DNA of 64,000 nt. Origin: Candidatus Omnitrophota bacterium (GTDB lineage Bacteria > Omnitrophota > Gorgyraeia > Zapsychrales > Fredricksoniimonadaceae). Below, one piece after another: positions 1-48,813 of this stretch. Location: NCBI GenBank assembly GCA_044225175.1, contig JBGAJA010000002.1, forward strand, positions 280,991 through 344,990. Direction: 5' to 3'. Each line of letters opens with the position of its first letter. Position 1 is the stretch's first letter. Position numbers and translations under genes: made by a program. The notes beneath the pieces are model-generated. The model was not told the origin of the DNA and did not search any database. It saw only the letters and a program-made list of their open reading frames with translations.

Positions 1-310
1 ACCCTGCTGATATCGATATTGTTGCTATCATCAATGATAATTATTCAGGAAAGAAACGATTGAAACTTAAAGGAGAAGAAATCTCCAAAAAGATATTTCA
101 TTCTCATTATGCCAGATTTACCGATTTTGTGGATGTGTCTTTCATGACGCAAAGACAGTTAATGGAGGATTGGGGCGTTAAAACAACACTTGCTAACTTT
201 GGAATTGTATTGAAGGCACAAGACCTTTGGGATGAACCTTTGACCCATGCACGCAAAAGCCATATCAACCGTTTGGAGAAGGCACAGGATCTATTATCTG
301 AGTCTCAAAG
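1..310 (+). other. Domain: C-terminal part of a minimal (Pol beta-like) nucleotidyltransferase fold, copy 1 (inside the giant CDS)
   Basis: The translation DIDIVAII...FTDFVDVSFMTQRQLMEDWGVKTTLANFGIVLKAQDLWDEPLTHARKSHINRL aligns at about 43 percent identity with copy 2 near nt 5150-5345. Confidence 0.5.
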
Positions 311-27300: not shown

Positions 27301-28430
27301 ACAGGATTGAGAGCATCACACATTTTATTGAAAGAAAAAAGACTAAAGCCGGTTTTCAGGGTTTATGGCATGGACGCGATGATCTTATGGCAGATAAGAT
27401 TCACGATGAATTATGGTCAATCGAAGAGTTCATTTCTGAATATGGATTACGTATGCTACGAGTAGTTTTCATAATATATTGGATAGGGAAAATGGTAACC
27501 TGGCCTCCGAGTAGATATCTCTGGTGGTGCTTTGGCTTGGTTCTTATTGTTGGTACCGTTTTAATGATAATTGAAAAGATAATCAAATTAAGAATCTTAA
27601 ACAAACGGTTCCATGAGATTACAACTGATGTTTCTCCAATTGCAGCCATTGAATCTGGCTGGCCCAAATGGGTAGAGGCATTCATTGGTCTAATAAATAA
27701 AAAATTTGGTCTTCGTAAAACAGGCATGCAGCAGTATCAAGAAGCAGTTGAAATTCTTTCAATGAAATTTGAATCAATTTTAAGAAATCTTCCAGATCAA
27801 ACCAATTTCACAGTGGAGCAATTGCAGGAATCTTTTGCCCAACAAGATTTAAATAGTGATTTCGCGTCTCTATCTATTTTGTTAAAAGAGAATCTACTTC
27901 ATTTTCTTGATGAAGAAGGCCCCATTGATATGGTCGCTACGAAGACTTTCATCGAAGCCTGCCAGTTAGTTGGAATACGAGCTGAACTGGATTCTTTCTA
28001 TGCACAGCATGCAATACTGATAGGTCAGAATAATCAAAAGATGGTCGTTAAATTTGTCTTTGATGTGATTAATCACATCATGATTTGTTCTTTAACAGAG
28101 CACGAAGTGATTAGCATGAGAAATTCTGTTGCAGATATTGTTCGCTCAGAGACAGCCTTAGAATTGCGCAGGAAACTTTATGATTTAGGTGAAGGTGTGG
28201 GTTTCAGAATAGTCTATAGCCAGCTTTTTCAATATAAGATTCTTCAATTTAATGTCCAGGCTGTCATAGGTAATCTTGATCCAGAGAAACTTGCCGAAAT
28301 TTTTTTTGTACAGTACCCGGACGATTCTCGGGACTCTTGGCACGCGATTTCTAAGAAGGATGCTCAAGGGCAGAGAATAACGAAACCCATAAAAGATATC
28401 TCCAATCCTCAAGAGGCTTGGATCAGTTAG
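1..28430 (+). CDS. Giant multidomain polytopic membrane protein, 5-prime partial, more than 9,470 aa. It contains nucleotidyltransferase, phosphoglycosyl transferase, GT9, SAM methyltransferase, GHKL-like, CPBP protease and HExxH modules plus internal repeats.
   Basis: There is no stop codon in this frame from nt 3 to nt 28430 (stop TAG at 28428-28430). The ORF-track start at 60 is a TTG, and the frame upstream translates ...PADIDIVAIINDNYS..., which continues a nucleotidyltransferase motif. The gene therefore begins upstream of the window. Many hydrophobic helices and recognisable catalytic motifs support a real gene (see the domain features below). Confidence 0.85.
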   Translation, partial: PADIDIVAIINDNYSGKKRLKLKGEEISKKIFHSHYARFTDFVDVSFMTQRQLMEDWGVKTTLANFGIVLKAQDLWDEPLTHARKSHINRLEKAQDLLSESQRILDLNKPYITEGEEALGRVYSRFDQANLFLLKDYPQLALSENKMRKLAVEIRHYLDRSTRFAEKHAMLQSIQNELIESIYLARRELVRRELANLNIKAFQPSVNIRAGPRANLVPISIPAAVMLASIGLNPDPALAKAFIILAMIFFLFLIGKIIISFKNFSWRLHLRLPWTRVRTLTPKEMLETLEDIAMSYQKQWSRVSNQKLFFQRKTRALAKSIVRNTIRVISHTQAPQNNLKSAIVFIQRQFEPKEAGHNKSQIMYETLLLAFWKTVSQKTSMKDQGTNLIVWLDKYISMGLLYYAIIVQMKLLPIAIFSRYVLSRWRIYIEYKKEMNSHFRDDPELQKWVVTMQTMIQEGKKNIDIVNAIKKAPFAHISIDLYKDLLTSSYMNSRSFYLYSYLYIFEEIQRSSSSANREFNMRQTIGMVLGDEGLELFDYVTKRMGVQILFIERKDEDLNDPNFINLRERKVYLNQGSSFVMNAFRFLSLARFFLNHKSLGPYHFLVDVKADKLPLKFLWKLFRNRFKDPTIKDLFNKLTVKERRHYFFVLWHAMGMGTAVSWIKWDYTYLVVRKLKLLEQTSIFLSEIHLSKQRIQNINSDYSLSSPAPPKRLASKAMILPAIRLFIRRIHYLPYLAFISVIYVPIIAAIDWSRLRFLADPFIWLFNKLIELAEFLNLKELARILKKIAHQINEALQGVWHMVENWAMNVWEVIGPYIMNVAHAAEGLLHYLISPAAFMLGAVVIILTYFVTKLMFKFILRKSSERIVWVGATVNILKKLNNDPILKIIGIVANKISVWVGGLFFIGGAIAITTEALAFIGKHLLLRWDYLRGFKYKISLSDDSYKAFFKMIHEMFSRIQSHLPKDLNEDYRKLVVEQILKKEEEIKELMTQLITSGMRSMEENITSAAPVASLRNDHWINLILAPMDLLSKDINARLETWHSMGIPFTHVHFYFTCGSFFGMALLILIFLPREFIKIYVEDIKRLFRFIFTKRINSLSSELKKLRGLQDIDFTLEIAEKRLGRFTYVIKAYGQEFNTRLGVFTSVSKLFIRTFFNKPRPYLLPAPHISKAFSPGEDAKNIEEGSPSQSRDVDSRDKIQTTTVFMGSLSVMRAGPEIHSVDSINWTYELAHRYGPVLSHDLVLILGAFVLIVMLFFNRIITEWIFKFISKSNARILNKDSNPLKIRMTSIENHTIVIQYSRNKFTNIYRSTDNDVLLMDSQRRSKDIFVYKAAQAISIKEDQKLRHGDIEILVEPGSMVTIKNFGKKPIKIMTESELSLDDQDYFRRGTAVVLGGGYLLLVFNRILFDFNLIEVAGLTLALILFLVKRTDDDKPTKLNYLIYRILNRTENIINYIDDFFRRTNKKRFFLIPQFFRSWKPSTQSFNDDQIDFVVSYLHGLVASRKIFSENDLIWTYRLAKSCIQVRQIDRFVQEHLEKWARESRDLRVLSAIITGWIQAPQSRGGIDRLTQILIKTHGFSKKTVTSSLLMKIAKQGADQARYESVDDDVSDDRVPSYRKQLRDRSIYKHQRFGLQKKILRRVASIDVTRLKAFLEEELSNISSQKNSTQGCVKTIIVFGSFLYGTRREPTDLDVYVIVEGVEVKQLVKKTVNIPRYVFSDEYSRLTRFADLHFMNREELIRDIGFRTSAANVGIVLRGEGLRDEPLTNARSSDFNRLVRASTAMKHGMKMIESTVEHDRRYPDAIPVWRAKAWRRITESHLFIQEVDSSVTAHEDFIEELLYGMERYNEDPHKNHDDFQWQLKRTHALVIASLHYARMSLVWRYLRSVRPPQVPTIRHKRAFGITVLPVVLSGLFTAACSIIFIVRHQLSMEYESLVNIGARLEILIPILLLSGIFAVPFRRNSKKSAVIKIQGKPEEEYLLMLRFFFVNLLSINFRLMQITTQESPDRRKFRPIIKDLVNISRNFKERLSATQKAYDQESIPYKRNLLSSRIEWMTIMNTKLIRAWGLLTDKANGPAVSQILLFQADSLFKRYTQAHLKKVERDRIRLRSRHLDYPTGKGRIWTNVKENVDKLTRWAHTSTKISKGMEITSPQVIEISFKSRWQMNRSNGHALNSVMANQKKFQLIVETLQELEKQLITYKEKGSIDPPLLMQLFDPIVRLLDQFIGRDTKTIIEELELAASAWQTAEMLLKSKNWKWGMTTISWAKRFFEGRLKELQQQRIYYEQNKLLPTFGMTFERNASIFQRVVEIETDGKWNTTVITRLIKDLEPNQDPDIVLILNSLMDAQKHYVQGKRVRASKYLAEAKLRVGNSNLLYEFLMIYRDHVKGFILDGYLLKDAHHTGFIKAFEQFLLDHPQEVRFKAVWTYRFFQAVFVRFKVEAPKQKGKRVIKIPNPLFIWFSKLIETIESKGFFQLPKAEREKIPYQIAQELELDLPPTKVEETIKAVTSYIPNTQHLPIAANSVDQWLIDLGLQALNYSRNTLFNRRGTRIFIRALNLHVQQMQDVIEWIAEQSKLRGRIVYAKPTPNKTPEGEEIWHLISSKTYARLDPKDRKVYHKLENIPDPHLKWLGIDREDLRRTFTLEIARQAVELGKETGNQTMVDIYQPFLDWLQQSYRPDPNESSISMQEPFAYIEGNAIVMASIYSKLSPHLERRVQEHERLHLKHPTITDEMVICQKHAQAVLMDQIKTISTFKGTSFSSRDFQNKIKAILAYEGKSKEKVQKFIRVAIKTMAQLVQDNDQLQIFYGLLGEIIGVYQVLFSQNTVLEGLDLGDIKEINLELAINGKPREMDCVTSRALIEIKFQLTWYKLLEQIINNRKDGGSSYLASLEWESLGFGHIRKIIYFGYKDYGSMAQGLIEYLKNHPADLSHLKFTEEGFRFEISFQKLFDFLFSKEIQKAVQEENRRRSLVSYWQERSQAVFELIQRLAHRLSEEPKTLVIAVHQARKKDLAILRNLGKGVTSQSDSKEEFLSYRTSKYMQFFYTIWPKTLGHLKGIGMIPSEHESHVIIRNGDNQPKWTISLEDLRRALEDIYSLDTSSESVLSTEEVIDLVWVKYSEPTETLGLEAQRTWLLENKIQNQEWSLEEIDYRLEKLFEAIQMDELFNLEIDQLNIKKSIEQNGFLNLPEDKLIALASKIKEYHAHLQEFFDLLYQACERFNQMAQKERERHNRLGIYDRQRILLQVLLTWNPTDRYLRRKLAFISNLLGQQDQAEAILLGVRPRAEDDVIEAANVKLDMARHLYGQLKIDLMYRRSALGEILEEILSKSRQGRDILRTFILSHKKGSPIHKLSMVYSKLASFHELIGTIYNRLSMTAYLRKSQEYNLMAFQSMVHAVSLTVQALKMDSNNWHAIRKLPMILSLTQRTIQNLKITIQNSENIYKSLEELKKALGDLNIPSFQSHKARIDEIIQEKLEICLFYENLSGRFVAVTIEMLKKDLYTTQEDLIKAILANSELGKEDEIRRLEEVFRHRMRELDLIALDMAIIYFYFELEEELRDLEKLPAYLQMVTGLEKIQIRDIKDRVVNKKDFYALLGIEVTEKTTTEEEPQNILYNKTNIRHFLIQDPLRLEQLYERLQQLRGWMKYKEFQSLYDLYQQVKDKVTDFLNQGNDVIESSKKEVTPQLAKLRNLRVGPQGYVTQRQQLEQKIENVVRKVKEQLSQGKDQLMQYFKIIQEVEAIYKSKWIKEVKARIESAIKEMELLQHSQNKNYLSRWRYQELLNQRTHYDVILAPLFEHRGLLKEIHQIIQEVEGMLAQKDILNGHMSTWALMWQAIKESYEDVAFEDQAFVQISMSKFEMMIFAKKLRKTVKTNQDFDTLRKRHGELEKTYMLHNGIYLNPSTEYSFKEKEIKDLLSQWQQKYEEWMALPFDSKNFIPYALRVKVIYKELLESIKDIQEKIRILVNEKNSVLLVQIEDLEKFVNEFFVWIEGEILPTYKGHTRSKTNLHQFMKIFRNYIHSLKGILATDVDDKNYLRLVAQGTEKLNCLASLAVSLQVIYNEELGCIKNTLLKYVPRFETRSNEYDLAESFSASIFGVKQNHPSSLTYRISQAQSELRKWLNYKDGPMPYWEWSNVNFITLNVYLFLWSNNNSLPIPPLYEVVQKAYKDIVSRRLEVFQKNPNPLRKPMTTISILKGWRTIQGVLNRVLTNHIEGWSFLLIKRKFGDVFNKAQSIKENNAKKLSVHIWPLMLIGMGLTIGQQYGIYGIRAGAQSQYVLGSQQILFSVLGVLSGILALLVVGLILIFLSDIWRAFKDPNSKIYRILDVVLTVLMIPLWIPVSFLMGLYVFVLLKHHGSSQSVLFKQERIGHQDQPFMIYKFCSIINTSNGKEIVLKHLRKSGLDEIPQVINIFKRQMSLWGPRPVRQEDIDNGRYPDYSLEIRRRLPGYLSLFVLDRGAGDGHSPKDQKTIEAQGKRFQELSQREYEHWSPILAISLILEFGFYLLKFIVRLFGFGNKLRGPPSLIINDVKILPTLTPEDTLELPPPSDLKDKGFLTKSIFIKDQIQQGQLSTIVLPDFPYNSPILIRIFEWLDGDESIRELMDIVYGYIPSLKLFNHVSLITLLDEVRTWKPKNLIATIGAQTNTREEIQRRLFDAINHGATGVLVVSGGGAWRRIFTGIVSILNILSPLLITVFIARIIQRKYLSMDSMKILELISEMKQRGQIAQTITVWAVANPYRDSIKRIEHKIECGAQRILIQPPILWELFTSWWREAQTSKLKEKIIVGIPYIASLKSLEFWFFLMNIKTSNWPFFRNRLTQDAYNLQQQFIQVQKLGKKAEETFIEQWNADFKSRVHHLSGFIGGHHMPVMAWGRVGRKEINEMRDKLQTLLGTVIEWGGNSYSVDANMVVLHRVLSVLLRMIDEKKIDLKGTSALIERIFFIHTIAPNSSQLMIDPRPLYRNKKFIGRFDILFDLRQLGKLSVSALEKNIVMVLNINSQEVPSKALMLSDPAPISQSRILWQFNYAFWRNLKGHLDATGQDFDASIAGSPDSNDQYVEYLAKRFLIKLIAAIKQEPSQRYFFLEIGSAGAKFVQLFLTKLMAYVPQYGLSLKDIQEHFTYILADYSPQIIKKTQQEIGLQFKGVAIEYELLSTTNTIPQLKSKYGQRVLCAHSTNVYDNLYGDKVGKLNGRNYMVEVMVTLPEEGMVRIVKEFNLDKDAFQRDLREYLLVRKNVDEFLLVYQMLFIQREQPLQFCLFWQALWREIKLPARLVMMDDLRNDMTINTIPESGRIIHEALSKYKGNIEIFVPSQAIESGLNVLDLLHPEGIFEVTDIAVTRIEEYALDPRKAVPLFFDGSIVFWFNAALFAEFAKSHYQNFSMDVQSLKAFDKNKAHMSLTTMTVNCPPIAISLVGFIASIAFGITNFENFSYGFIGIVVIMGCLGALFSGSEKIKTNPNKIDLEVEQTTMIDTKGNIVKTSKRLKAQELRALPIGYRVTVIKKLDGFKAGFNFAGVNPWFYLGNCRGFTIKVEFEIRTQGPVIVDVKPIKDAKGHIIQEQDQLINGSSIEYDAKGNLVEFRANMSVSEFKRIPKDHRVVVVKKLCRLSGEFNFVRMNPRFIMGKYKNHMVRVHFEIRKDKAFIVNVELIRDAQGNVIKHQIINGSSIEYDAKGKLVQFRVNMSLKDFKKIPQGHRVIAFKKLEKTDGRFIFARTIWFYLIKYKQYTAKVEFFTHAKGNQTIQNVVLIRNTDGEVIPEIIPLKFQSKYRPMIREANWSVGRKGRAHKTTVMGTQREQDGYQTVSEREMIGVIETHIKTHFRNMNVPRVMRFLRELSEVPIQDRSEFIKRKAQAAHITIKNFEKVLRELRKHLSGLITGFDPPPATKAKRRGHVTFELLSVLTGALLSVLYLSVPLSRTTYVFNVFSAPSLFTLVLGLFFIRLIFPQRQDYSETIEEKVTVLNGAGDIIKIMKVIRNKELQALPEGYCIVVIKKLSKGLGCFSLAQSNLFYLSNYERFTVEVKIEKKGQELVLMDVKLLKDDQGNNIQKAEQFIEGSLIEYNKDGQVVRFWPMMRLKEFQKITPGHQMVVHRQLDALGGFTFAKPQRWFFLAEVAGYIVKVRFVMREHGAVIIDVKVIKDAEGNLLEDKDTILDGTAVEYDELSQIVQFWPNMDSTEFKSISNGHRLIVVKKLDSSDGGFSFAGVNSWFYLIGYEGYTVQVEFKIAQEGALIINVIPIRNAGGEFVEAKDRLIKGGVFEYDEQGELIKFWNSMTNKHFKNIPKGHRLFVTKNISKSNGQFRFAHVIWFTSTKHRNYTAKVCFYIDQNGNCRIESVNLIRDGKGNVIDEQAFPVATGLIYQHFSIEEQWTEDHKGRKHKTRIAGSPREENSYCIIAGRETTGIIEDYIRQHVDTIRIKVFMNFLRELGELSLKERRIAIQRRTRDWGITVEAFNLVLKGLRKHLLDIMSLAVVIINSKHLFSLHLSSGSSVHINHTIVDALGLKIHAGLVNFSCSLFATVDVMMSSLLGFMSPIRAGPTILGSFVGVDTIGLSVGIGLVALIVCLICVIHTGRVVTKRFKITSMIVSTLFLAVINFWFIAPAISKDSSIVLQLFINSIFFMIFRANTDFFMQSLSQRGFILKQTLFVLPAGFVMGILSGISLLFFNTALTLHESVGWLNVLLGLGWMTGFVFLTYFGVAVLPLLLGKEFKWKDLIQFKDMKAGAPIVATGTAIFSIIFTGFVFITKKVDNPIAYGIINALHIIGLLSIFRWRSMIYRTVVKWVQDGHSKDPPEIIWQTKGSLIVRAALLTFPVLEHYAAEIDSFINNIKIGTIVRYLRNLKKKAGSLSAEEENRFKKFLSTYGQSNTTLQTPLADSLLRTQIRRVIYIEYKDKLGNKTIQSSVMLHAIRRSFPHLKEIVVITEYPGLYDGQERLKTIEVDLVFLNHQTKLAQELAQLAKNASQNDLFISDSEGYLQYLHPRITRSFFCQADNFWDPRSEIFSKIRGADKKQNVIDNQARLRALGLEFEERFDYFYQDSRKLKGKGQVILTRAKGQWRYKFSKPVLIINPHAVFYGIQNWQPRWAALIKRLVQSNDYEIFLTSGTPDNAWDQRRLEEIKTLLARADINNRTYHILPPMTVGPLKAVLSAADAVITVQTGVAHLAEALGKPVIVWTDSPNGVGFLHEETALLRLVLDVDRNEKQPFRFKSIEEIVEETLRKCLELTDSPPSSVKILKSLAWPSMLFAGASGFTAVVLKAEGINFLFNAGFAMMSSLLGFMSPIRAGPVSNSNPFTNPYCQLLLVSLFLIAVLRAGIPCQNLIKFLLSAFFRKRITGLSWIKIGQFKKAIHLGKAVEYLKEQALYEEVKRTTKKGQRTSARWFALKAFPFAIFNKDGEPQLKLMGLSDYVKLYNLAWSMDYVYRLRGLVETVDARIRYDLGEYGFTDRVLDREDYTCKSITLQPLQDGTQDYEEQIIRLRCFISSIQDFVRSKIQNFDHITNMDHILMQLGQNIIQHSRIGILNVSAAFVDGQITMDITQCDVGRGIDLKEESQLRSQNIHQLASDIFNRYFNTRITLFSQGQKFKITGIDALGNLEGPIESFSEAKKGMKAEISFVVLKGGRRQARAHPTAPIIHRPPSGRRPVRSQTALSNVTGLIIIGILGLTATYARAGPVNVPKLSHQFPLNLAVGPNVWPIVIGLIFVVIFAVLIIVFLNRRKEIKHLSGLQEKLSPGRVDRGWAYMNLEVQTFIQETMAKASVQMGKPKILIIGVGGGRILYDMMYLFPGAEFSFINKHPIRISKEEFGEPFKGATSIREFLKYFARNETVHDVDQGLPYSSNSFDLVLVAQHTSMYFKDKLKVLSEIKRVLKKDAVGMVWGWLNSSKFKDEQGSDLLEKDVIESFNSQGDRYYILSYFYFIMVNLRPKNSFPALELIAQGRYQEWPGMAFRYYDTYQTNSKPQPSQTIAIDEKGVVLVHVLGSLPKEGTLYPNSYFDPLFYARKTPLPFLFRCPREIVEFSWNDALKFFHSDDSMAVLIPLSAYKGKDLINLWYTATSHFGPFEIPAGSSLVLPMKHKGNPNLEAIREKGIKIVFFEESMTFTRQTSLDLHVQNNGIYDAITQEIQQMGYKSYELLTRSVTGGLGYDTTFLDASSGIDYLDENTQEATTKIKEQMAQTLGIPSSKSTLEYPVGLITFMMEKMHRDFTDAGYLGTVKIQYKEFLNLARQAYQSLSPEQQSSPTGQRFLQYLSFYSLLLRINDQLKKNPLMPIEPMYDYSSPKRRTSKEIQRSKKRFISFVNKTYRLHFKADHLKTLEDYAQIFESILAKDESIKLAISGERESVANPLAEKDLKSRQISWLWTIGLISAASIFGLQLFIGSSIKDNTTILAIIYMVLIAPILEEVVFRIILFQRLFRPYFGVIVSTVISSLLFALVHLIVERLNVLDFITFFAFGTVYALAYEKTKKFWVPIMAHVINDGLINLCIFYGILDGTAGGISFVAFRGLILVIFVSWLMAGRGNFSKLFDKTSKVDSKLLRWYEQWDDSVKRKIRLFRKKVNIEDVIQERWLGKLESWQKKEILASLKQERKVLSKILGFMAVASAIVILLFVLSKVAISFDLPPMPLTPVFILVLYLTLITHELGHWLAGRWIQYHVKPSPYKKISIHLIPNPPYVAYVDFLPKTEFSPTPAQHILTFQGGPFANLILAMLCSPALAYLVYHGSLFSQLTIGLLLASNLVFFSMYLIKYPSISDGAIVKQTRGILKIVNSMMMLYENIGPLESIEDNDDNQFYLKMGGSIYALVKEDGKQSHADPSIELIYWANSLGIQEPIAVPFRIHGELIKTKTQEPCFVYQGKRYFLYKISNFPQELLIPEDDSLSETRNPLDQRSLNTYKLANVFKDLFIKLWRKFLRKKRSVEYPLDEAVSREHPVICFVLNFLREKDRDEMIMSLESRLTQRQVFLKENIVTADEFISQATVVIESVFELEQLIGHRHENLIGLLKRAYEDLKKGQKIKDWRTSLNQFIDWGFPIEFIQEIVTNREVKDYFVNYRKPFPISRHQGGYSCLEIVFSGMVGGFLCYLGKWWVFAAHLILFWIDGRIIHYFTVKIMSDRWNNRIESITHFIERKKTKAGFQGLWHGRDDLMADKIHDELWSIEEFISEYGLRMLRVVFIIYWIGKMVTWPPSRYLWWCFGLVLIVGTVLMIIEKIIKLRILNKRFHEITTDVSPIAAIESGWPKWVEAFIGLINKKFGLRKTGMQQYQEAVEILSMKFESILRNLPDQTNFTVEQLQESFAQQDLNSDFASLSILLKENLLHFLDEEGPIDMVATKTFIEACQLVGIRAELDSFYAQHAILIGQNNQKMVVKFVFDVINHIMICSLTEHEVISMRNSVADIVRSETALELRRKLYDLGEGVGFRIVYSQLFQYKILQFNVQAVIGNLDPEKLAEIFFVQYPDDSRDSWHAISKKDAQGQRITKPIKDISNPQEAWIS
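4930..5350 (+). other. Domain: minimal nucleotidyltransferase (Pol beta superfamily), copy 2 (inside the giant CDS)
   Basis: The motif IIVFGSFLYGTRREPTDLDVYVIVEG matches the GS-x10-DxD nucleotidyltransferase signature. It is followed by ...ANVGIVLRGEGLRDEPLTNAR..., which is homologous to copy 1. Confidence 0.6.
12735..13385 (+). other. Domain: polyprenyl-phosphate phosphoglycosyl transferase (bacterial sugar transferase, WbaP/PglC-like), TM helices plus catalytic core (inside the giant CDS)
   Basis: Hydrophobic helices come first (nt 12735-13060). The catalytic motifs follow: KQERIGHQDQPFMIYKF, then LDEIPQVINIFKRQMSLWGPRPV, then RRLPGYLSLFVLDRG. These match the conserved Bac_transf blocks (G-x-G-x-F-x-xxKFRTM, DELPQLxNVLxGxMSxVGPRP, PGxTGxxQ). 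Confidence 0.7.
16432..19380 (+). repeat. Array of seven roughly 100-aa (about 300-nt) beta-rich repeats arranged as two super-repeats (3 then 4 units), each ending in a homologous tail of about 110 aa (inside the giant CDS)
   Basis: Unit anchors (P-x-G-H-R-[VL]-x-V-x-K-K-L... then NGSSIEYDAKG-x-LV-x-FR-x-NMS) lie at nt 16463, 16764, 17059, 17930, 18230, 18529 and 18826. Spacing is 295-301 nt. The tails KGRAHKTTVMGTQRE...FLRELSEVP and KGRKHKTRIAGSPRE...FLRELGELS are homologous. Confidence 0.7.
19544..19591 (+). repeat. 48-nt segment encoding MMSSLLGFMSPIRAGP, copy 1 of a near-identical pair
   Basis: The sequence gatgatgtcatctttattgggcttcatgagtcccatccgtgctggacc matches nt 21785-21832 at 46 of 48 positions. 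Confidence 0.8.
20870..21520 (+). other. Domain: GT9-family glycosyltransferase (ADP-heptose:LPS heptosyltransferase-like) (inside the giant CDS)
   Basis: The translation ...VLIINPHAVFYGIQNWQPRWAALIKRL...YEIFLTSGTPDN...VITVQTGVAHLAEALGKPVIVWTDSPN matches the conserved GT9 C-terminal blocks (D-S-G-P-M-H-L-A-A-A-L-G-x-P-x-V-x-L-F-G-P-T). Confidence 0.6.
21785..21832 (+). repeat. 48-nt segment encoding MMSSLLGFMSPIRAGP, copy 2
   Basis: The sequence gatgatgtcatctttattgggcttcatgagtcctatccgcgctggacc is a direct repeat lying 2.2 kb downstream of copy 1. The two copies bracket a multi-TM block and the GT9 domain. Confidence 0.8.
22480..22640 (+). other. Domain: possible GHKL (histidine-kinase-like ATPase, RsbW/SpoIIAB-type) segment (inside the giant CDS)
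   Basis: ILMQLGQNIIQHSRIGILNVSAAFVDGQITMDITQCDVGRGIDL resembles the N-box through G1-box of anti-sigma-factor-type GHKL kinases. Confidence 0.3.
23200..23640 (+). other. Domain: class I SAM-dependent methyltransferase (inside the giant CDS)
   Basis: Motif I is PKILIIGVGGGRILYDM. An acidic post-I residue is present. Later come SNSFDLVLVAQHTSMYF (motif II region) and LKKDAVGMVWGW (motif III). Confidence 0.6.
25030..25440 (+). other. Domain: CPBP / CAAX-protease (Abi) family intramembrane metalloprotease (inside the giant CDS)
   Basis: All three CPBP motifs sit within hydrophobic helices: APILEEVVFR (EExxxR), SLLFALVHL (FxxxH) and MAHVINDGL (HxxxN/D). Confidence 0.65.
25790..26230 (+). other. 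Domain: membrane-embedded HExxH segment, possible M50/S2P-like metalloprotease (inside the giant CDS)
   Basis: LTLITHELGHWLAGRW (HELGH) lies in a TM helix, with further TM helices downstream. This is motif-level evidence only. Confidence 0.3.
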
Positions 28431-28462
28431 TAAAAGGGCATTGCCCAGAAAGGACATTAGCC

Positions 28463-28831
28463 ATGTCAGAATTACGTCAAATCCCCCGATGGCAAATTGG
28501 TGAGAGAGCAAAGGTAACACTTAAAGAGCATGAGTGGGAGGGTAAGTGTTTGCTTGAAGACTTGAATCTTAAAGGATTCAAGATATCTTCGAAAGAAAAA
28601 CTGCCTGCAGACACAGTCTTTGAGATTAATCTAGATCTTAAAAGTTATTTAATTCTTGATGCTATTGTGAAGGTCTGTTGGAAGATGGAGCGTGAAGGTC
28701 GTTATCATTATGGGATGGAGTTTCTTAGAATCAAGGACCAGGACAAGCAGGATATTAGTCAGTATTTATTTAAGAATCATGCAGAACAAGTCAAAAATAT
28801 CTGGTGGTCTAGAGATGGGATTAAGGAATGA
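28463..28831 (+). CDS. PilZ-domain-like small protein, a putative c-di-GMP receptor
   Basis: An ATG at 28463 follows AGGA at 28451-54. The translation has RQIPR (RxxxR), then about 25 aa later DLNLKG (D/N-x-S/N-x-x-G), and a C-terminal YGMEFLRI block, matching PilZ layout. The ORF-track start at 28418 overlaps the giant gene's last codons. Confidence 0.45.
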   Translation: MSELRQIPRWQIGERAKVTLKEHEWEGKCLLEDLNLKGFKISSKEKLPADTVFEINLDLKSYLILDAIVKVCWKMEREGRYHYGMEFLRIKDQDKQDISQYLFKNHAEQVKNIWWSRDGIKE

Positions 28832-29011
28832 GAGAGGTTCTTCTTTAATGTTTTTTAGGCGGATTCTTTCGATCTCCTAATCTGACAAGAAGTTCCCGCA
28901 AAAATATTCCCTAGATTAAATAAAGCCTTGCTAGTAATGGAAATCTATAGAGGTTTGATTCATCAAAACCACTTAAAGGACATGATGAATCATACCCCTA
29001 CAAAAGTGTAT

Positions 29012-30811
29012 TTACGTCCTCAAGAATTGTTTATCCAAGAAGCTTTCTTTGATTTCAACAACTGTAGGACGTCCGTGGGGGCAGGTGAAGGGGTCGTGGC
29101 AAGCTAAGAGTTGCTTGCGTTGATAGTCAGCTTGGGAAATGTCCATTTTGTCACCAGTGACGATCGAGGCTTTGCAGGCACGTCGGGCGATTGTGGTGCG
29201 ATCACAGCGGGCAACAGAGTCACCTGATAAAAGCATTCGAACGGAATTTTCAATATTCTTAAGAAGCACGGGTTGTGTTTGAATGGCCAGAGTATCTTCA
29301 TCAAATAGTGACGTTTCAATCCCTACATCTTTCAAATTTTCCTGTGAATTTTCCCATGCGATTTTTTCTGAAGCATTCATTTTAAGCAAAACAGGCGTCA
29401 ACAAAGGCTGAACTTCGATCTTGCCTTGCTTAATTTGATTGTCAAACTTCTCAAACATAATTCTTTCTTGAGCAGCATGTTGATCCACCAAAAACAAGGA
29501 TTGTTCAGATTCGAATAAAAGATATTTACTGATAAAGCTCCCAATAAACCTGGCTTTAGTAAATTTGCTTCGCAGATTATCTTCCGATTTAAAAAAATCT
29601 TCGGAGGCTGTCTTCCAATGACTTGTTTCAAAGCTGCGGCCAATAGCGGACTTTAAAAAACCAGGATTCTGAGAGATCGCAGGAGACGAAGTAGAGAATA
29701 AGGACGCAGGCTCGTCCTTTAAGAAATTGGATTGAGCTTTGTTGATAAAGGTTGCACCCGTTTCCTGGGGACCGATTCCTTCAATGGACTTGGCTTGTCC
29801 TTGCTGCAAAAGCGTATATTCCGTCATATGACGAACAAATGAAATCAAACGACTTTCCTGACGAAGTCGGACTTCACGTTTAGTGGGATGAATATTAGCG
29901 TCCACCTCAGAGGGATCAATTTGAATGTCTAATACAAAAGCAGGATAAACTCCCGGAGGCAAAATCAATCGATAGACATCATTCATATTAAAGCTTAAGT
30001 TTTTGTTTTCCACAGGACGGTTATTCACAAAGATGAATTGCAGATCACGACGGGGACGCTGAACATTGATGCTGCTGACAAGCATGCGTACTGTGGCATT
30101 AAGTTCTGCAAATTCCTGGCTGGCTTCAAATAAATCCTTGTTTGCTAAGTTTAAAGCATGTGACATGCGATCAATGGCAGAAGTGCTGGGGGTCAAATCA
30201 ATGAGGATCTTTCCCGCATGGCTTAACAAAAAACGCTTGGCAGGATAAAGAAGCGTATAAGGCAGAAAAACATTAATGATTTGCTGCATTTCAGAGGCAT
30301 TGTTCTTAAGAAATTTTCGACGAGCTGGCGTATTAAAGAATAATTGGGTGATTTTGATCTCTGTGCCTTGAGAGGACAGGGCTGCGGGTTTTAATTCCAA
30401 GCGTTTGCTTGCCTGCAAATGGATTTCCCAACCATCTTTCCAGCCAGAGGCTGGTCCGCCTTTGGCGGATGTTTTACTTCGAAGAATAATGTCTGAAACA
30501 GCAGCTAATGAATATAAAGCTTCCCCACGAAAGCCCATGGAAGAAAGCTTCTGTAGATCTTCAATGGATTGCAGCTTGCTTGTTGCATGACGCTGAAAGA
30601 TCTGGTCCATGTCGCCTTTGGCAATGCCGCAGCCATCGTCTTTGATGTGAATAAGTTCCTTGCCAGCATCTTTGAGATGGACTTCAATCGAATTTGCCCC
30701 TGCATCGATAGAGTTTTCAACCAATTCTTTGACGACAGACGCAGGACGTTCCACTACCTCACCGGCAGCGATTTTGGCAATGACATCAGAAGAAAGAATT
30801 TTTACAGGCAT
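29012..30811 (-). CDS. mutL: DNA mismatch repair protein MutL
   Basis: The N-terminal GHKL ATPase motifs are present: KELVENSIDAG and DDGCGI. The length is 599 aa. Confidence 0.93.
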   Translation of the reverse strand: MPVKILSSDVIAKIAAGEVVERPASVVKELVENSIDAGANSIEVHLKDAGKELIHIKDDGCGIAKGDMDQIFQRHATSKLQSIEDLQKLSSMGFRGEALYSLAAVSDIILRSKTSAKGGPASGWKDGWEIHLQASKRLELKPAALSSQGTEIKITQLFFNTPARRKFLKNNASEMQQIINVFLPYTLLYPAKRFLLSHAGKILIDLTPSTSAIDRMSHALNLANKDLFEASQEFAELNATVRMLVSSINVQRPRRDLQFIFVNNRPVENKNLSFNMNDVYRLILPPGVYPAFVLDIQIDPSEVDANIHPTKREVRLRQESRLISFVRHMTEYTLLQQGQAKSIEGIGPQETGATFINKAQSNFLKDEPASLFSTSSPAISQNPGFLKSAIGRSFETSHWKTASEDFFKSEDNLRSKFTKARFIGSFISKYLLFESEQSLFLVDQHAAQERIMFEKFDNQIKQGKIEVQPLLTPVLLKMNASEKIAWENSQENLKDVGIETSLFDEDTLAIQTQPVLLKNIENSVRMLLSGDSVARCDRTTIARRACKASIVTGDKMDISQADYQRKQLLACHDPFTCPHGRPTVVEIKESFLDKQFLRT

Positions 30812-30813
30812 AA

Positions 30814-33330
30814 TCAGGTCAATTTTCTTTTAATTTCATCCAATTTCTTCAAGGCATCTAATGGTGTCATGTTATCGATATCAACCGATTCTAACGATGA
30901 ACGCAATTCTTCAACTAAAGGGTCTGATGTGGGTGCAAATAAATCAATTTGTTTCTCATGACGTTTAATGGGTGTTGTTGAACCTAACTCTAATTCGCAA
31001 AGAATTTCTTTGGAACGTTTAATGACATTCTGAGGGATACCTGCTAATTGGGCAACATAGATTCCGTAGGAATCATCACAGCCGCCTTCCACAATTTTGT
31101 GCATGAAGATGATTTGGTCTTTCCATTCCTTAATAGCTACGTTGTAGTTCTTGACTCCAGAGAATTTATCCGCCAAGGCAATCAGTTCATGGAAATGGGT
31201 GGCAAAGAGTGTACGCACTTTTTGCTGTTCTAGATGCTCTGCCAAAGCCCACGCTAAAGATAATCCGTCGCTAGTTGAGGTGCCGCGGCCAATTTCATCT
31301 AAGATAACCAGCGATCGTGGTGTTAGGTTATTGAGAATATCAGCAGCTTCTGTCATCTCAACCATAAATGTGCTTTGATTTTTGGAAATATCGTCATGAG
31401 CGCCAATGCGAGTGAAAATCTTGTCCACTAATCCTATGGAAGCAGAACCCGCGGGAATAGGCGCGCCCATTTGGGCCATTAAAACAAGAATAGCCGTTTG
31501 GCGAATGTACGTGCTTTTGCCTGCCATATTAGGGCCTGTCAAAATGATTAATTGATTGTCTTTTGTATCTAGAAAGGTATCGTTGGCAATAAAGTTTTCC
31601 GTCACTGTATGTTCAACCACAGGATGACGACCGTCTTTAATATCGATTGTCATGGAATCATTGAGGCTAGGGAAGATATATCCACGGCTTTTACTTAAAG
31701 AGGATAAAGACAGGATGCAATCTAAGAAAGCAATCTGAGTCGAATAGTTATGGAGATGGGGAACTTCATCCAAAATAGCTTTCTCAACCGACTGCAGAAT
31801 CTTTTTTTCGATGGAAAGGATTCTATCTTGTGCTGTTAAGAATTTCTCTTCATAGTCTTTGAGTTCTTGGGTAATGTAACGCTCACCATTGGCCAAAGTC
31901 TGTTTTCGGATGTAATGGGAGGGGGCTGATTTTTGATGGGTTTTGGAAATTTCAATGTAGTAGCCAAAGACATTATTAAAGCCTACCTTCAAAGAATTAA
32001 TTCCACTTTTCTTGATTTCTTCTGCTTGATAATTGGCAAGCCACTGACGTGCATTGTCCTGCAATCCGCGAAGATCATCTAATTCTTTGTCTATTCCTAG
32101 TTGAATGATTTTTCCTTCAGGTTTTGCTAAAGGAACATCAGGGTTAATGGTTTGAGTAAGAAGTTCACGCAGTTTCTCTAAATCACTAACAACTAATAAA
32201 GGATGACTAATTGTGGAGAGGGTTTCGGCAATCAAAGGTCCTCTCAAAAGACCGTTTCGCAGGGCCAGAATATCTTTAATGCTGCAGCAGCCGCAACTGA
32301 TTCTTGAAAGCGCCTTTTCTAGATCAGGCATATTCTGTAAGCATTCAATTAATCGTGTTTCTGTTTTTGAGTTTTCAGATAAATGTTTAACAGCTAATTG
32401 TCTCTCTTGAATGGCTTGAGCATTTTTTAAAGAATGAAACATCCAAAATCGAAAAAGTCTATGTCCCATGGGGGTATGAGTGTGGTCAAGCGTCTTAAGC
32501 AATTCCTCAAGTTCAAGTCCATAGTGGGCGGCGGGTGAAATGAACATAAAATCATTTGCTGTATAGAGAGACAGACGATGAATATGTTTGAGAGATGTTT
32601 TATTCGCTAAGCGTAAGTATTCGAGCAAAGCCCCAGAAGCACTGATCGCTAGCGGCTTCTGGTCTAACCCAAAACCATTTAAGTTAAGGACCCCAAAGTG
32701 GGAGCAAAGATTTTTATTAGAAACGTCCCAATGGAAATGCCAATCATCCATAGGGCTTAAAGAAATATTTTTGATTTTTAAAAGGGGATGGGCAAATAAA
32801 GCACGAATTTGTTCTTCCTGGGAAGATGGATAAATGCATTCGTAAACGGCCAGCTTAGAAATAATTTCAAGGGCACTTTTTAAAGAGCATTCATTGGACT
32901 GCAAGATACCCCCTGTATTGTCACAGAAGCAAAATCCTAGGCGATCTTTAGATATATAAAGAGAAAGAAGGGAGCGGGCCTGTGTTTCTTCATCGAGGAA
33001 TGTCCCGGCGCTAATGACCCGGATCACATCTCGCTTGACCAATCCCTTTGCAAGGGCAGGATCTTCGACCTGTTCACAGATGGCCACTTTTCGTCCAGCC
33101 TTAATCAATTTAGCAATATAGTTTTCCGATGAATGATAGGGCACCCCACACATAGGAATTTTGCCACTGTCTTGGCCGCGGGAGGTCAGTACTAGATCTA
33201 ATAGAGAAGAGGCATCTTTAGCATCATCAAAAAACATTTCATAGAAATCCCCTAAGCGGAAAAATACAATCGAGTCTTTATGGCGGGATTTGATTTCGTG
33301 ATACTGCTTAATCATGGGAGTTGTTTCCAT
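30814..33330 (-). CDS. mutS: DNA mismatch repair protein MutS
   Basis: The N-terminus is TPMIKQYHEIKSRHKDSIVFFRLGDFYEMFFDDA. The Walker A motif GPNMAGKST is present. The length is 838 aa. It lies immediately upstream of mutL on the same strand. Confidence 0.95.
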   Translation of the reverse strand: METTPMIKQYHEIKSRHKDSIVFFRLGDFYEMFFDDAKDASSLLDLVLTSRGQDSGKIPMCGVPYHSSENYIAKLIKAGRKVAICEQVEDPALAKGLVKRDVIRVISAGTFLDEETQARSLLSLYISKDRLGFCFCDNTGGILQSNECSLKSALEIISKLAVYECIYPSSQEEQIRALFAHPLLKIKNISLSPMDDWHFHWDVSNKNLCSHFGVLNLNGFGLDQKPLAISASGALLEYLRLANKTSLKHIHRLSLYTANDFMFISPAAHYGLELEELLKTLDHTHTPMGHRLFRFWMFHSLKNAQAIQERQLAVKHLSENSKTETRLIECLQNMPDLEKALSRISCGCCSIKDILALRNGLLRGPLIAETLSTISHPLLVVSDLEKLRELLTQTINPDVPLAKPEGKIIQLGIDKELDDLRGLQDNARQWLANYQAEEIKKSGINSLKVGFNNVFGYYIEISKTHQKSAPSHYIRKQTLANGERYITQELKDYEEKFLTAQDRILSIEKKILQSVEKAILDEVPHLHNYSTQIAFLDCILSLSSLSKSRGYIFPSLNDSMTIDIKDGRHPVVEHTVTENFIANDTFLDTKDNQLIILTGPNMAGKSTYIRQTAILVLMAQMGAPIPAGSASIGLVDKIFTRIGAHDDISKNQSTFMVEMTEAADILNNLTPRSLVILDEIGRGTSTSDGLSLAWALAEHLEQQKVRTLFATHFHELIALADKFSGVKNYNVAIKEWKDQIIFMHKIVEGGCDDSYGIYVAQLAGIPQNVIKRSKEILCELELGSTTPIKRHEKQIDLFAPTSDPLVEELRSSLESVDIDNMTPLDALKKLDEIKRKLT

Positions 33331-43234: not shown

Positions 43235-43318
43235 TGCTGGGAGAGGGAATCGAACCCTCACAGCCGTGAAGCTACTGGTTTTTGAGACCAGCGCGTATAC
43301 CAGTTCCGCCATCCCAGC
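43235..43318 (-). tRNA. tRNA-Leu (anticodon CAA)
   Basis: The sequence was folded by hand. The acceptor stem is GCTGGGA/TCCCAGC. The anticodon stem is CTGGT/ACCAG with loop CTCAAAA. A long variable arm is present. The T-arm is GAGGG-TTCGATT-CCCTC. The discriminator is A. Confidence 0.85.
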
Positions 43319-43324
43319 AAAATT

Positions 43325-43402
43325 TGGTGGAGTTGAGGGGGGTTGAACCCCTGACCTCCTGCATGCCATGCAGGCGCTCTACCAAAACTGAGCTACAACC
43401 CC
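43325..43402 (-). tRNA. tRNA-Ala (anticodon GGC), CCA encoded
   Basis: The acceptor stem GGGGTTG/CAACTCC carries the G3:U70 Ala identity pair. The anticodon loop is ATGGCAT. The T-arm is AGGGG-TTCAACC-CCCCT. Confidence 0.85.
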
Positions 43403-46838: not shown

Positions 46839-46839
46839 A

Positions 46840-48397: not shown

Positions 48398-48407
48398 GAA
48401 TATATGT

Positions 48408-48780
48408 GTCATTGCGAGGAGCAAAGCGACGAAGCAATCTTAAATTATGTTGACAAAACAATATTACGTTTATTTTTTAACGAATTAGAATAATAAAGTT
48501 CTGTATGTAGGAGTAACGAACGATTTAAAGCGCAGAACCTATGAGCACAAGAGTGGATTGGTCGATGGATTCACTAAGAAATATCGTGTGAATAAATTAG
48601 TCTACTATGAAGTTGCCGAACTGATTGAAAGTGCGATTTTAAGAGAAAAACAGATTAAAGCTGGTTCGAGGAAAAAGAAAACGGACTTAATAACAAGTTT
48701 TAATCCTAATTGGGAAGACCTAGCTGACAAACTATAAAAAGATTGCTTCCTCAGTCGCTTCGCTTCTTCCTCGCAATGAC
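48408..48780. mobile_element. Small GIY-YIG (COG2827-type) cassette bounded by imperfect inverted repeats, inserted in the bioC-bioD spacer
   Basis: The left IR at 48408-48439 is gtcattgcgaggagcaaagcgacgaagcaatc. The right IR at 48741-48780 reads, as its reverse complement, gtcattgcgaggaagaagcgaagcgactgaggaagcaatc. The pair encloses a roughly 96-codon GIY-YIG ORF. Confidence 0.55.
48447..48737 (+). pseudogene. GIY-YIG nuclease-superfamily ORF (URI domain) with an in-frame TAG at codon 14
   Basis: The translation is MLTKQYYVYFLTN*NNKVLYVGVTNDLKRRTYEHKSGLVDGFTKKYRVNKLVYYEVAELIESAILREKQIKAGS... The GIY (YVYFL) and YIG (LYVGVT), R and E motifs are present. The TAG at 48486-48488 interrupts the frame. 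Neighbouring genes in this window (bioC, the giant gene) use TAG as a stop. Confidence 0.5.
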
Positions 48781-48813
48781 AAAATAAGTCTCTATATTTA
48801 GGAGAATCTTTAT

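What the first reader, a model, noticed from the sequence alone, without database searches (positions are those of the whole stretch)
28463..28831. PilZ-like small protein encoded immediately after the giant gene
The RxxxR and D/N-x-S/N-x-x-G spacing and the C-terminal YGMEFLRI block fit the PilZ c-di-GMP receptor fold. PilZ domains classically gate polysaccharide synthases such as BcsA and Alg44. One placed directly 3-prime of a megaprotein carrying PGT and GT domains hints at c-di-GMP control of that system.
Basis: partly seen in the sequence, partly recalled or inferred. Interest (0 to 1): 0.55.

Follow-up and report, generated by a model that had tools for sequence, protein, structure and literature searches.

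The report
Small PilZ gene after giant gene
The 122-residue ORF right after the giant gene is a real, conserved stand-alone PilZ-type (cyclic-di-GMP receptor) protein, but a 2023 preprint on Omnitrophota giant genes already describes small pilZ genes in this position, so this is another example of a known pattern.

Summary
Confirmed. Window 28463-28831 (+) encodes a 122-aa soluble protein. It scores 46.3 bits (E 5.9e-12, cut-off 22.5) over the whole Pfam PilZ profile. With a 100-sequence alignment it folds (pLDDT 87.7) into a beta-barrel plus C-terminal helices, and its 43 best PDB matches are all PilZ domains (MapZ, YcgR, MrkH, VCA0042, Alg44, BcsA).

R5xxxR9 and D33-x-N35-x-x-G38 are invariant in close homologues. 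Asn replaces the canonical Ser. In the wider family (668 representative clusters) Ser and Asn alternate at this position while the Arg, Asp and Gly stay fixed, so c-di-GMP binding is likely but untested.

The gene starts 32 nt after the tandem stops of a membrane-embedded ORF of at least 9,475 aa that carries PGT, GT9, methyltransferase, CAAX and M50 domains. Orthologues in other assemblies also sit just 3' of very long, contig-truncated ORFs, although those ORFs are barely alike in sequence.

West-Roberts et al. (bioRxiv 2023) already reported small pilZ genes immediately downstream of most Omnitrophota giant genes. The protein is a free-standing adaptor, not a fused gate as in BcsA or Alg44. 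Its target, and any control of the giant protein, remain inference. No diguanylate cyclase lies in the window.

Verdict: new member of a known kind, modest interest.

The parts
3..28430 (+). Giant ORF, at least 9,475 codons, open at the window's left edge. It is a polytopic membrane multi-enzyme protein with two NTase-like modules, Bac_transf/PGT (aa 4321-4495), GT9 (aa ~7045-7163), a methyltransferase (aa ~7758-7862), a CAAX/Rce1-like protease (aa ~8373-8466) and an M50 peptidase (aa ~8615-8753). It ends in tandem stops TAG TAA at 28428-28433.
   Evidence: 53 overlapping hydrophobic 19-mer segments (roughly 40 distinct); internal repeats
28431..28462 (+). 32-nt spacer between the giant gene and the PilZ gene. 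A Shine-Dalgarno-like AAAGGA sits at 28449-28454, 8 nt before the ATG. No promoter-like or terminator-like site falls in the spacer.
   Evidence: consensus scans at chance level; co-transcription is inferred, not shown
28463..28831 (+). Gene for a 122-aa soluble single-domain PilZ protein (pI ~7.7, 14.7 kDa).
   Evidence: Pfam PF07238 E 5.9e-12; AF2 pLDDT 87.7; the 43 best PDB fold matches are all PilZ; homologues
28475..28489 (+). RxxxR motif (R5-Q-I-P-R9) in the N-terminal loop. It is preceded by Leu4 and followed by the family-specific Trp10.
   Evidence: invariant in A3; R5 155/157 and R9 160/161 of aligned family domains; aligned to RKEPR of VCA0042
28559..28576 (+). D33-L-N35-L-K-G38, the (D/N)xSxxG motif with Asn in place of Ser.
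   Evidence: invariant in 11 close homologues; in the family D 167 / N 22, position 35 S 92 / N 77, G 190/191; aligned to DLSRSG of VCA0042 and DVSLHG of MapZ
28709..28723 (+). Y83-G-M-E-F87 on the last barrel strand, the conserved YGxxF block of the PilZ domain.
   Evidence: G84 188/194 and F87 181/194 in the family; aligned to YGLEF of VCA0042
28736..28816 (+). Two C-terminal helices (aa 92-105 and 107-118). They include the nearly invariant W114-W115 (nt 28802-28807), which lies outside the Pfam domain and is a candidate partner-docking surface.
   Evidence: DSSP of the model; WW conservation
28858..28944 (-). Stop-flanked remnant with no start codon of a small (62-68 aa) membrane-protein gene. 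In relatives that gene lies intact between pilZ and mutL.
29012..33330 (-). mutL (29012-30811) and mutS (30814-33330), convergent with pilZ. They mark the 3' boundary of the giant-gene/pilZ unit.
   Evidence: same arrangement in relatives

Best explanation
The ORF encodes a free-standing, single-domain PilZ protein. It most likely acts as a cytoplasmic c-di-GMP receptor/adaptor expressed as the last gene of the giant-gene transcription unit.

Proposed mechanism: c-di-GMP is clamped between the N-terminal R5xxxR9 loop and D33/N35/G38 on the barrel. Because Leu, not Arg, precedes the RxxxR, a monomer may be bound, as in VCA0042. The ordered loop, together with the C-terminal helices that carry the invariant Trp-Trp, then forms a surface that docks in trans onto a partner. 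The partner favoured by conserved gene order is a cytoplasmic part of the membrane-embedded giant multi-enzyme protein or its export machinery. This would couple the giant protein's activity or assembly to the second-messenger level.

Shown: PilZ family membership, the fold, motif conservation, the conserved position 3' of very long genes, and a c-di-GMP synthase in a relative's locus. Inferred: ligand binding, stoichiometry, co-transcription and the identity of the partner.
For: - Family and fold: PF07238 at E 5.9e-12 over the full profile. The AF2 model has pLDDT 87.7 with six barrel strands and two C-terminal helices. Foldseek ranks 1-43 are all PilZ domains at probability 1.00 and TM 0.5-0.7, led by MapZ, YcgR, MrkH and VCA0042.
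- Binding motifs: R5, R9, D33, N35 and G38 are invariant in 11 homologues down to 44% identity. Over 195 family domains the arginines, Asp/Asn and Gly are near-invariant, and Ser/Asn alternate 92:77.
- Gene arrangement: a 32-nt gap with a Shine-Dalgarno-like sequence, on the same strand, with no terminator-like site between.
- Conserved position: orthologues lie 18-87 nt after ORFs that run off the contig: at least 2262 aa, 3318 aa, 1281 aa, 701 aa and 763 aa. One has two small genes between it and an ORF of at least 2551 aa.
- Literature: most Omnitrophota giant genes are followed by one or more small pilZ genes.
- Topology: the giant protein is polytopic and carries PGT, GT9 and methyltransferase domains; that these face the cytoplasm, within reach of a soluble PilZ, is assumed from what is known of those enzyme families, not tested here.
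- Signal source: a GAF-GGDEF cyclase (E 6.9e-45) lies 7.6 kb from the orthologue in L008.
Against: - No binding or interaction data exist for any member of this family.
- The canonical Ser of D/NxSxxG is Asn, and I found no experimentally characterised PilZ with Asn at this position.
- There is no GGDEF, EAL or HD-GYP gene and no c-di-GMP riboswitch in the 64-kb window.
- The upstream giant genes of different relatives share almost no sequence near their 3' ends. A conserved docking site on them is therefore not evident.
- In two relatives (L003, L008) a ~620-aa GH-like gene, not the giant gene, is the immediate upstream neighbour.
- Gene adjacency alone does not identify a partner.
Confidence: 0.55

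Rival explanations
1. It is a genuine c-di-GMP-binding PilZ adaptor, but its target is something other than the giant protein. Candidates include a type II secretion / type IV pilus-like ATPase or another cytoplasmic enzyme, as with MapZ-CheR1 or PilZ-FimX-PilB. Its position after the giant gene would then reflect only shared transcription or inherited gene order.
For: Stand-alone PilZ proteins characterised so far act on unlinked partners; the best fold hit is MapZ in complex with CheR1. The 3' parts of the upstream giant genes are not conserved between relatives. The immediate upstream neighbour differs in L003 and L008. The preprint reports a conserved T2SS-like locus upstream of giant genes.
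Against: The same-strand, short-gap position behind very long ORFs persists down to ~35% PilZ identity, while the downstream genes change from mutL/mutS to coiled-coil genes or others. No secretion ATPase or chemotaxis gene lies in the window.
Confidence: 0.25
2. It has a PilZ fold but no longer binds c-di-GMP, because the Ser-to-Asn change disables the site. It would then work as a ligand-independent protein-protein adaptor like the xanthomonad type II PilZ proteins, or it binds a different nucleotide.
For: Position 35 is Asn instead of the canonical Ser. No cyclase or phosphodiesterase lies in the window. Many single-domain PilZ clusters are known to be non-canonical.
Against: Non-binding PilZ proteins lack both motifs altogether. 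Here R5, R9, D33 and G38 are under strict conservation across hundreds of clusters, and Ser and Asn interchange freely on the same background. That pattern points to a maintained ligand site. Asn keeps a hydrogen-bonding side chain. A relative's locus encodes an intact GGEEF cyclase.
Confidence: 0.15
3. The ORF is functionally tied to the convergent mutL-mutS pair, or it is a chance or decaying ORF in the spacer.
For: pilZ, mutL and mutS are adjacent in the window and in the closest relatives.
Against: The orientation is convergent. mutL/mutS are absent next to the orthologues in L008, L009, L010 and the P0018 contig, while the upstream long ORF remains. The protein is conserved, scores above the Pfam cut-off and folds confidently.
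Confidence: 0.03

Closest known systems
Small pilZ homologues immediately downstream of Omnitrophota giant genes (West-Roberts et al., bioRxiv 2023, doi 10.1101/2023.11.21.568195, Fig. [quoted passage not shown]
   Same: A ~120-aa single-PilZ ORF on the same strand, directly after a giant membrane-protein gene rich in glycosyltransferase, methyltransferase and peptidase domains (their 'Archaeovorin' type). The nearest database loci include a Candidatus Omnitrophota MAG.
   Different: There is only one pilZ copy here. The genes downstream are mutL/mutS and housekeeping genes, not the solute-binding-protein transporters and glycosyl hydrolases the preprint describes. No GGDEF domain occurs in the 9,475 aa of the giant ORF visible here. 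The full gene length and any upstream T2SS-like locus lie outside the window. The preprint gives no motif or family analysis of these PilZ proteins.
MapZ / PA4608 of Pseudomonas aeruginosa (stand-alone PilZ adaptor; PDB 5xly, 5y4r, 1ywu, 2l74)
   Same: Single-domain size, barrel plus C-terminal helix, RxxxR and D-x-S/N-x-x-G in register. It is the best PDB hit both by fold and by family profile (E 0.004). It acts in trans on a partner enzyme.
   Different: Only 17-21% identity. It has Ser where this protein has Asn, and RRxxxR (a dimer binder) where this protein has L-RxxxR. Its partner CheR1 has no counterpart in the window. The Trp10, Cys29, Trp73 and Trp-Trp114-115 signature is specific to the present family.
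VCA0042 / PlzD of Vibrio cholerae (PDB 1yln, 2rde, 3kyg)
   Same: It is the best single-sequence PDB match, with the motifs RKEPR/RQIPR, DLSRSG/DLNLKG and YGLEF/YGMEF aligned. A Leu directly precedes RxxxR, the feature linked to binding of a c-di-GMP monomer. The L135R mutant structure 3kyg is among the fold hits (principle cited).
   Different: VCA0042 has an additional N-terminal YcgR-N-like domain and is a dimer. The sequence match is weak (E 0.3).
PilZ domains of BcsA and Alg44 (polysaccharide synthase gating)
   Same: The same fold and ligand motifs (fold hits 4p00, 4rt0, 4rt1, 9fnn). They are associated with glycan-assembly machinery in the membrane.
   Different: There the PilZ domain is part of the synthase or co-polymerase polypeptide and gates its active site in cis. 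Here it is a separate gene in another reading frame behind tandem stop codons. The neighbouring protein has a PGT (Bac_transf) and a GT9 domain, not a processive GT2 synthase.
Type II, non-binding PilZ proteins of xanthomonads (XC1028; tetrameric XCC6012, PDB 3ph1/3rqa)
   Same: PilZ barrel used as a protein-protein adaptor. They appear as weak fold hits (ranks 37-47).
   Different: [quoted passage not shown]

Membership tests
PilZ domain (Pfam PF07238) | Score above the curated gathering threshold over most of the profile | tested here: met
   46.3 bits against 22.5, E 5.9e-12, profile positions 2-101 of 102. The L007 and L008 orthologues also pass.
PilZ domain (Pfam PF07238) | Six-stranded beta-barrel followed by C-terminal helix(es) | tested here: met
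   AF2 with 100 sequences gives pLDDT 87.7, strands 10-20, 25-34, 38-43, 52-59, 63-77 and 80-90, and helices 92-105 and 107-118. Foldseek ranks 1-43 are all PilZ structures.
[quoted passage not shown] | RxxxR motif in the N-terminal loop | tested here: met
   R5-Q-I-P-R9. It is invariant in close homologues and about 99% conserved in 195 family domains. It aligns to RxxxR of VCA0042 and MapZ.
[quoted passage not shown] | (D/N)xSxxG motif on the barrel | tested here: inconclusive
   The sequence is D33-L-N35-L-K-G38. Asp and Gly are present, but the Ser is replaced by Asn. In the family this position is Ser in 92 domains and Asn in 77, on an otherwise conserved motif. The strict consensus is not met, and the functional consequence is unknown.
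[quoted passage not shown] | Measured binding of c-di-GMP | not testable with these tools
   This needs ITC, DRaCALA or MST on the purified protein.
Omnitrophota giant-gene-associated pilZ (West-Roberts et al. 2023) | Small pilZ ORF immediately downstream of a giant gene on the same strand | tested here: met
   A 32-nt gap after an ORF of at least 9,475 aa. The same arrangement is seen in relatives.
Omnitrophota giant-gene-associated pilZ (West-Roberts et al. 2023) | Host genome belongs to phylum Omnitrophota | tested here: inconclusive
   The window's origin is not given. Of the two genome loci that carry orthologues, L008 is titled Candidatus Omnitrophota bacterium and shares comM-DUF212-ykuD-accA-rlmN synteny with the window. 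L007 is titled 'uncultured Planctomycetales bacterium'.
Omnitrophota giant-gene-associated pilZ (West-Roberts et al. 2023) | Giant gene longer than 30,000 aa with SecA-DEAD-like domain, T2SS-like locus upstream, and SBP transporters and glycosyl hydrolases downstream | tested here: inconclusive
   The 5' part of the gene and everything upstream lie outside the window. No SecA domain occurs in the visible 9,475 aa. The downstream genes are mutL/mutS, comM, accA, rlmN, the bio operon and others. A GH-like gene sits next to pilZ only in relatives L003 and L008.
BcsA/Alg44-type cis-gating PilZ | PilZ domain fused to the glycan synthase or co-polymerase polypeptide | tested here: not met
   It is a separate ORF in a different frame, after tandem stops TAG TAA. 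There is no processive GT2 synthase domain in the giant ORF.

The most novel reading that the evidence does not exclude
This PilZ would belong to a distinct, previously undescribed subfamily. The subfamily has about 670 clusters at 50% identity and the signature E-[RKL]-R-x-x-x-R-W ... C ... D-x-[SN]-x-K-G ... W ... YGxxF ... WW, with both single and tandem forms. It would be the dedicated c-di-GMP switch of the giant membrane 'Archaeovorin'-type proteins. It would dock through its Trp-Trp helix on a cytoplasmic module and turn prey attachment or cell-surface glycan assembly on or off. The window's clade would have moved from dimer binding (R-RxxxR) to monomer binding (L-RxxxR).
Probability: 0.3. 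Interest if true: 0.55.

Novelty: new member of a known kind. Interest (0 to 1): 0.3.

Why it matters
Giant genes of Omnitrophota are among the largest known, and how they are regulated is unknown. A conserved small second-messenger receptor at their 3' end is one of the few experimentally tractable handles on them. A 14.7-kDa soluble protein can be expressed, tested for c-di-GMP binding and used as bait to find which part of the giant protein, or which other partner, it contacts. For annotation, this work fixes the start codon. It also shows that the Asn variant of the D/NxSxxG motif is a regular feature of this family rather than a defect of this one gene.

Tried and rejected
- First AF2 run with only 5 sequences gave pLDDT 60 and was unusable. 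It was replaced by a 100-sequence alignment.
- Exact look-up of the public 137-aa gene call found no record.
- The genome-contig scan returned only 2 loci. The metagenome-contig scan returned 1 locus that was already known.
- Promoter and terminator consensus scans around the junction were at chance level.
- Rfam found no c-di-GMP riboswitch, only two tRNAs.
- A motif search for GGDEF/GGEEF in all six frames of the window found nothing.
- Cluster look-up gave no source names or accessions.
- BLAST of the relatives' upstream ORFs against the window's last 343 aa found nothing. That led to the finding that relatives' genes end earlier, after the CAAX domain.
- The idea that pilZ is tied to mutL/mutS was rejected on orientation and on loss of that adjacency in more distant relatives.
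- The idea that pilZ is a frameshifted C-terminal domain of the giant protein was rejected: it lies in a different frame, behind tandem stops, with its own Shine-Dalgarno-like sequence, and homologues share the same N-terminus.

Full report
**1. The observation**

Window 28463-28831 (+) is an intact ORF (ATG to TGA, 122 codons). It lies 32 nt after the end of an enormous ORF. That ORF has no stop codon from window position 3 to 28427, which makes it at least 9,475 codons. It is open at the left edge, so it is longer than the window shows. It ends in tandem stops, TAG TAA at 28428-28433.

The small ORF is in a different reading frame. An AAAGGA Shine-Dalgarno-like element sits 8 nt before its ATG.

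- R5-Q-I-P-R9
- D33-L-N35-L-K-G38
- Y83-G-M-E-F87

**2. It is a PilZ domain**

hmmscan against Pfam gives PF07238 (PilZ) at E 5.9e-12 and 46.3 bits, against a gathering cut-off of 22.5. The match covers profile positions 2-101 of 102. NCBIfam adds nothing above threshold.

The best PDB sequence match is VCA0042/PlzD. It is weak (E 0.3), but the motifs are in register: RKEPR/RQIPR, DLSRSG/DLNLKG and YGLEF/YGMEF.

An AlphaFold2 model built on five sequences was poor (pLDDT 60). With a 100-sequence family alignment the model reached pLDDT 87.7 and pTM 0.77. It has six strands (10-20, 25-34, 38-43, 52-59, 63-77, 80-90) and two C-terminal helices (92-105, 107-118).

Foldseek against the PDB returns only PilZ structures in ranks 1-43, all at probability 1.00 with TM 0.5-0.7. 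These include MapZ/PA4608 alone and in complex with CheR1, YcgR, MrkH, VCA0042, Alg44, BcsA, MotI and PlzA. The family profile's best PDB sequence hit is MapZ (E 0.004), with RRRFHR and DVSLHG aligned to the family's RRxxxRW and DINLKG.

The protein has no hydrophobic segment (maximum KD19 of 1.1) and is predicted to be soluble.

**3. The ligand site**

The word-indexed searches found 17 family members, including 7 at 58-81% identity. An exhaustive profile search of 1.84 billion representatives found 668 clusters at E <= 1e-3 and 176 at <= 1e-10. Most are 115-125 aa. A sizeable minority are about 230-aa tandem di-PilZ proteins.

In 11 close homologues, down to 44% identity, R5, R9, D33, N35, K37 and G38 are invariant.

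Conservation over 195 aligned family domains (denominators exclude gapped rows):

| Position | Residues observed |
|---|---|
| R5 | R 155/157 |
| R9 | R 160/161 |
| 33 | D 167, N 22 |
| G38 | G 190/191 |
| 35 | S 92, N 77 |

The canonical Ser is therefore replaced by Asn here. This is a regular alternative state of the family on an otherwise strictly conserved site, not a sign of decay. PilZ proteins known not to bind c-di-GMP lack both motifs outright.

I conclude that c-di-GMP binding is likely (about 0.75), but it is not demonstrated. I found no characterised PilZ with Asn at this position.

The residue directly before RxxxR is Leu in the window's subclade and Arg or Lys in most of the family. 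In VCA0042 this Leu goes with binding of a c-di-GMP monomer, and the L135R mutant binds a dimer (PDB 3kyg is among the fold hits; the principle is summarised in the paper read). A monomer-binding mode is therefore a testable prediction.

Family-specific conserved residues outside the canonical motifs are W10, C29, W73 and W114-W115 on the last helix. The C-terminal region of single-domain PilZ proteins is where MapZ contacts its partner. I take the Trp-Trp helix as the likeliest docking element. This is inference.

**4. The neighbourhood**

Pfam hits in the giant ORF:

| Domain | Position (aa) | E-value |
|---|---|---|
| NTase-like module, two copies | 1-110 and 1688-1791 | |
| Bac_transf (phosphoglycosyl transferase) | 4321-4495 | 7.9e-21 |
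| GT9 | ~7045-7163 | 1.2e-15 |
| Methyltransferase | ~7758-7862 | not recorded here |
| Rce1/CAAX-type protease | ~8373-8466 | 5e-20 |
| M50 peptidase | ~8615-8753 | 3.7e-9 |

The scan flagged 53 overlapping hydrophobic 19-mer segments, roughly 40 distinct ones.

Downstream and convergent with pilZ are mutL and mutS. After them come:
- comM, a DUF212 gene, an L,D-transpeptidase, accA and rlmN
- two tRNAs
- an aminotransferase gene (PF00266, class V)
- birA and a biotin operon
- mnmA, pgi and an ABC transporter
- two long ORFs without Pfam hits

.

The window contains no GGDEF, EAL or HD-GYP gene and no c-di-GMP riboswitch.

**5. Conservation of the arrangement**

| Family member | PilZ identity to window | What lies upstream of pilZ |
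|---|---|---|
| P0003 (18-kb contig) | 61% | ORF of at least 2,262 aa, cut by the contig end, 49 nt away; small ORFs then mutL and mutS follow pilZ |
| L007 (216-kb MAG contig) | 61% | ORF filling all 9,957 nt of available flank (at least 3,318 aa), 43 nt away; mutL and mutS follow |
| P0016 | 37% | ORF of at least 1,281 aa, cut by the contig end, 23 nt away |
| P0013 | 38% | ORF of at least 701 aa, cut by the contig end, 18 nt away |
| P0018 | 41% | ORF of at least 763 aa, cut by the contig end |
| L008 (Candidatus Omnitrophota MAG) | 44% | a 622-aa GH-like gene and a 152-aa ORF, preceded by an ORF of at least 2,551 aa |

In L008 the mutL/mutS pair is absent, but the comM-DUF212-ykuD-accA-rlmN block is shared with the window. 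L008 also carries a GAF-GGDEF cyclase (E 6.9e-45) 7.6 kb from its pilZ.

Five independent assemblies begin only 45-62 nt upstream of the pilZ start. This is what one expects if the upstream gene is hard to assemble.

The stable neighbour is therefore the long same-strand gene upstream, not mutL/mutS.

The upstream genes are hardly homologous to one another:
- L007's last 3,318 aa share only a ~140-aa module with the window's giant ORF. They carry NTP-transferase and histidine-phosphatase domains instead of PGT/GT9.
- The genes upstream of P0003 and P0005 end right after the CAAX domain, at a point equivalent to giant residue ~8,540. The window's ORF continues for another 935 aa.
- The closest relative (P0002, 81%) has the C-terminus of the GH-like gene upstream.

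The linkage is thus to the giant-gene locus, not to any particular enzymatic domain.

**6. What is already known**

West-Roberts et al. (bioRxiv 2023) surveyed Omnitrophota giant genes. [quoted passage not shown] Their 'Archaeovorin' class is defined by glycosyltransferase, methyltransferase, glycosyl hydrolase, peptidase and related domains and by many transmembrane helices. The window's ORF fits that description.

A full-text search found no other paper on this association and no experimental work.

What this analysis adds:
- the corrected start codon
- the fold confirmation
- the definition of a sizeable PilZ subfamily with its own signature
- the regular Ser/Asn alternation
- the Leu-before-RxxxR state of this clade
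- the finding that the association survives near-complete turnover of the upstream gene's 3' sequence

**7. Mechanism and rivals**

| Explanation | Probability |
|---|---|
| Trans-acting c-di-GMP adaptor, co-expressed with the giant membrane protein and acting on it or on its export/assembly apparatus | 0.55 |
| Same receptor, but with an unlinked target | 0.25 |
| PilZ-fold adaptor that no longer binds c-di-GMP | 0.15 |
| Link to mutL/mutS, or a spurious ORF | 0.03 |

The comparison with BcsA and Alg44 holds at the level of fold and ligand. It does not hold for architecture. Those are fused, cis-gating domains on processive synthases. This is a separate polypeptide next to a PGT/GT9-bearing protein.

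**8. Verdict**

The finding is real and correctly interpreted as far as sequence analysis can go, but it is a new member of an already described pattern. Interest is 0.3. It would rise only if binding and partner experiments showed that this family is the dedicated switch of the giant proteins.

Noticed in passing
window 25620-28430 (giant ORF aa ~8540-9475): Relatives' giant genes (upstream of P0003, P0005 and probably L007) stop just after the CAAX/Rce1-like domain with a shared ...FYIWLDDxxKxILRxxxR tail. The window's ORF reads on for about 935 aa, including an M50 peptidase domain. This could be a gene fusion or a lost stop codon in this lineage.
   Followed up: partly
window 28858-28944 (- strand): A stop-flanked fragment without a start codon (…SKALFNLGNIFAGT…) matches a conserved 62-68-aa small membrane-protein gene. 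That gene lies intact between pilZ and mutL in L003, L004 and L007. Here it looks like a pseudogene remnant.
   Followed up: partly
window ~16413-19385 (giant ORF aa 5471-6461) and aa 1-110 / 1688-1791: The giant ORF contains seven ~100-aa repeats in two blocks (aa 5471-5752 and 5960-6342; 32-44% identity), each block followed by a related tail module. Its first visible module (NTase-like) recurs at aa 1688-1791 (37% identity). This indicates growth by internal segmental duplication.
   Followed up: partly
window 55564-60237 and 60183-63998 (+): Two further long ORFs (1,557 aa, and at least 1,272 aa running off the right edge) have no Pfam hit at E <= 0.001. They may be another large-protein locus.
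   Followed up: no
L009 1-62; L017, L018, L019 1-45: Five independent metagenome assemblies of pilZ relatives start only 45-62 nt upstream of the pilZ ATG. This suggests that assemblies systematically break at the 3' end of the upstream (giant?) gene.
   Followed up: no
L008 17909-19834 (- strand): A GAF-GGDEF diguanylate cyclase (GGEEF, Pfam E 6.9e-45) lies 7.6 kb downstream of the pilZ orthologue in a Candidatus Omnitrophota MAG. No counterpart sits at the syntenic place in the window.
   Followed up: partly
L003 2-238; L008 8056-9924: In the closest (81%) and a distant (44%) relative, the gene directly upstream of pilZ is a ~620-aa protein with a weak GH2 TIM-barrel match and a conserved C-terminal module (54% identity between the two). 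This gene is absent from the window.
   Followed up: partly
window 28418-28462: The public gene call for this ORF (P0001, 137 aa) starts at TTG 28418 and overlaps the giant gene's stop. All homologues start at the position of ATG 28463, so the deposited start is probably 15 codons too early.
   Followed up: yes
window 44731-50765; 43235-43402: A birA plus bioF/bioH/bioC/bioD/bioA-like cluster and two adjacent tRNA genes on the minus strand. This is ordinary housekeeping context.
   Followed up: no
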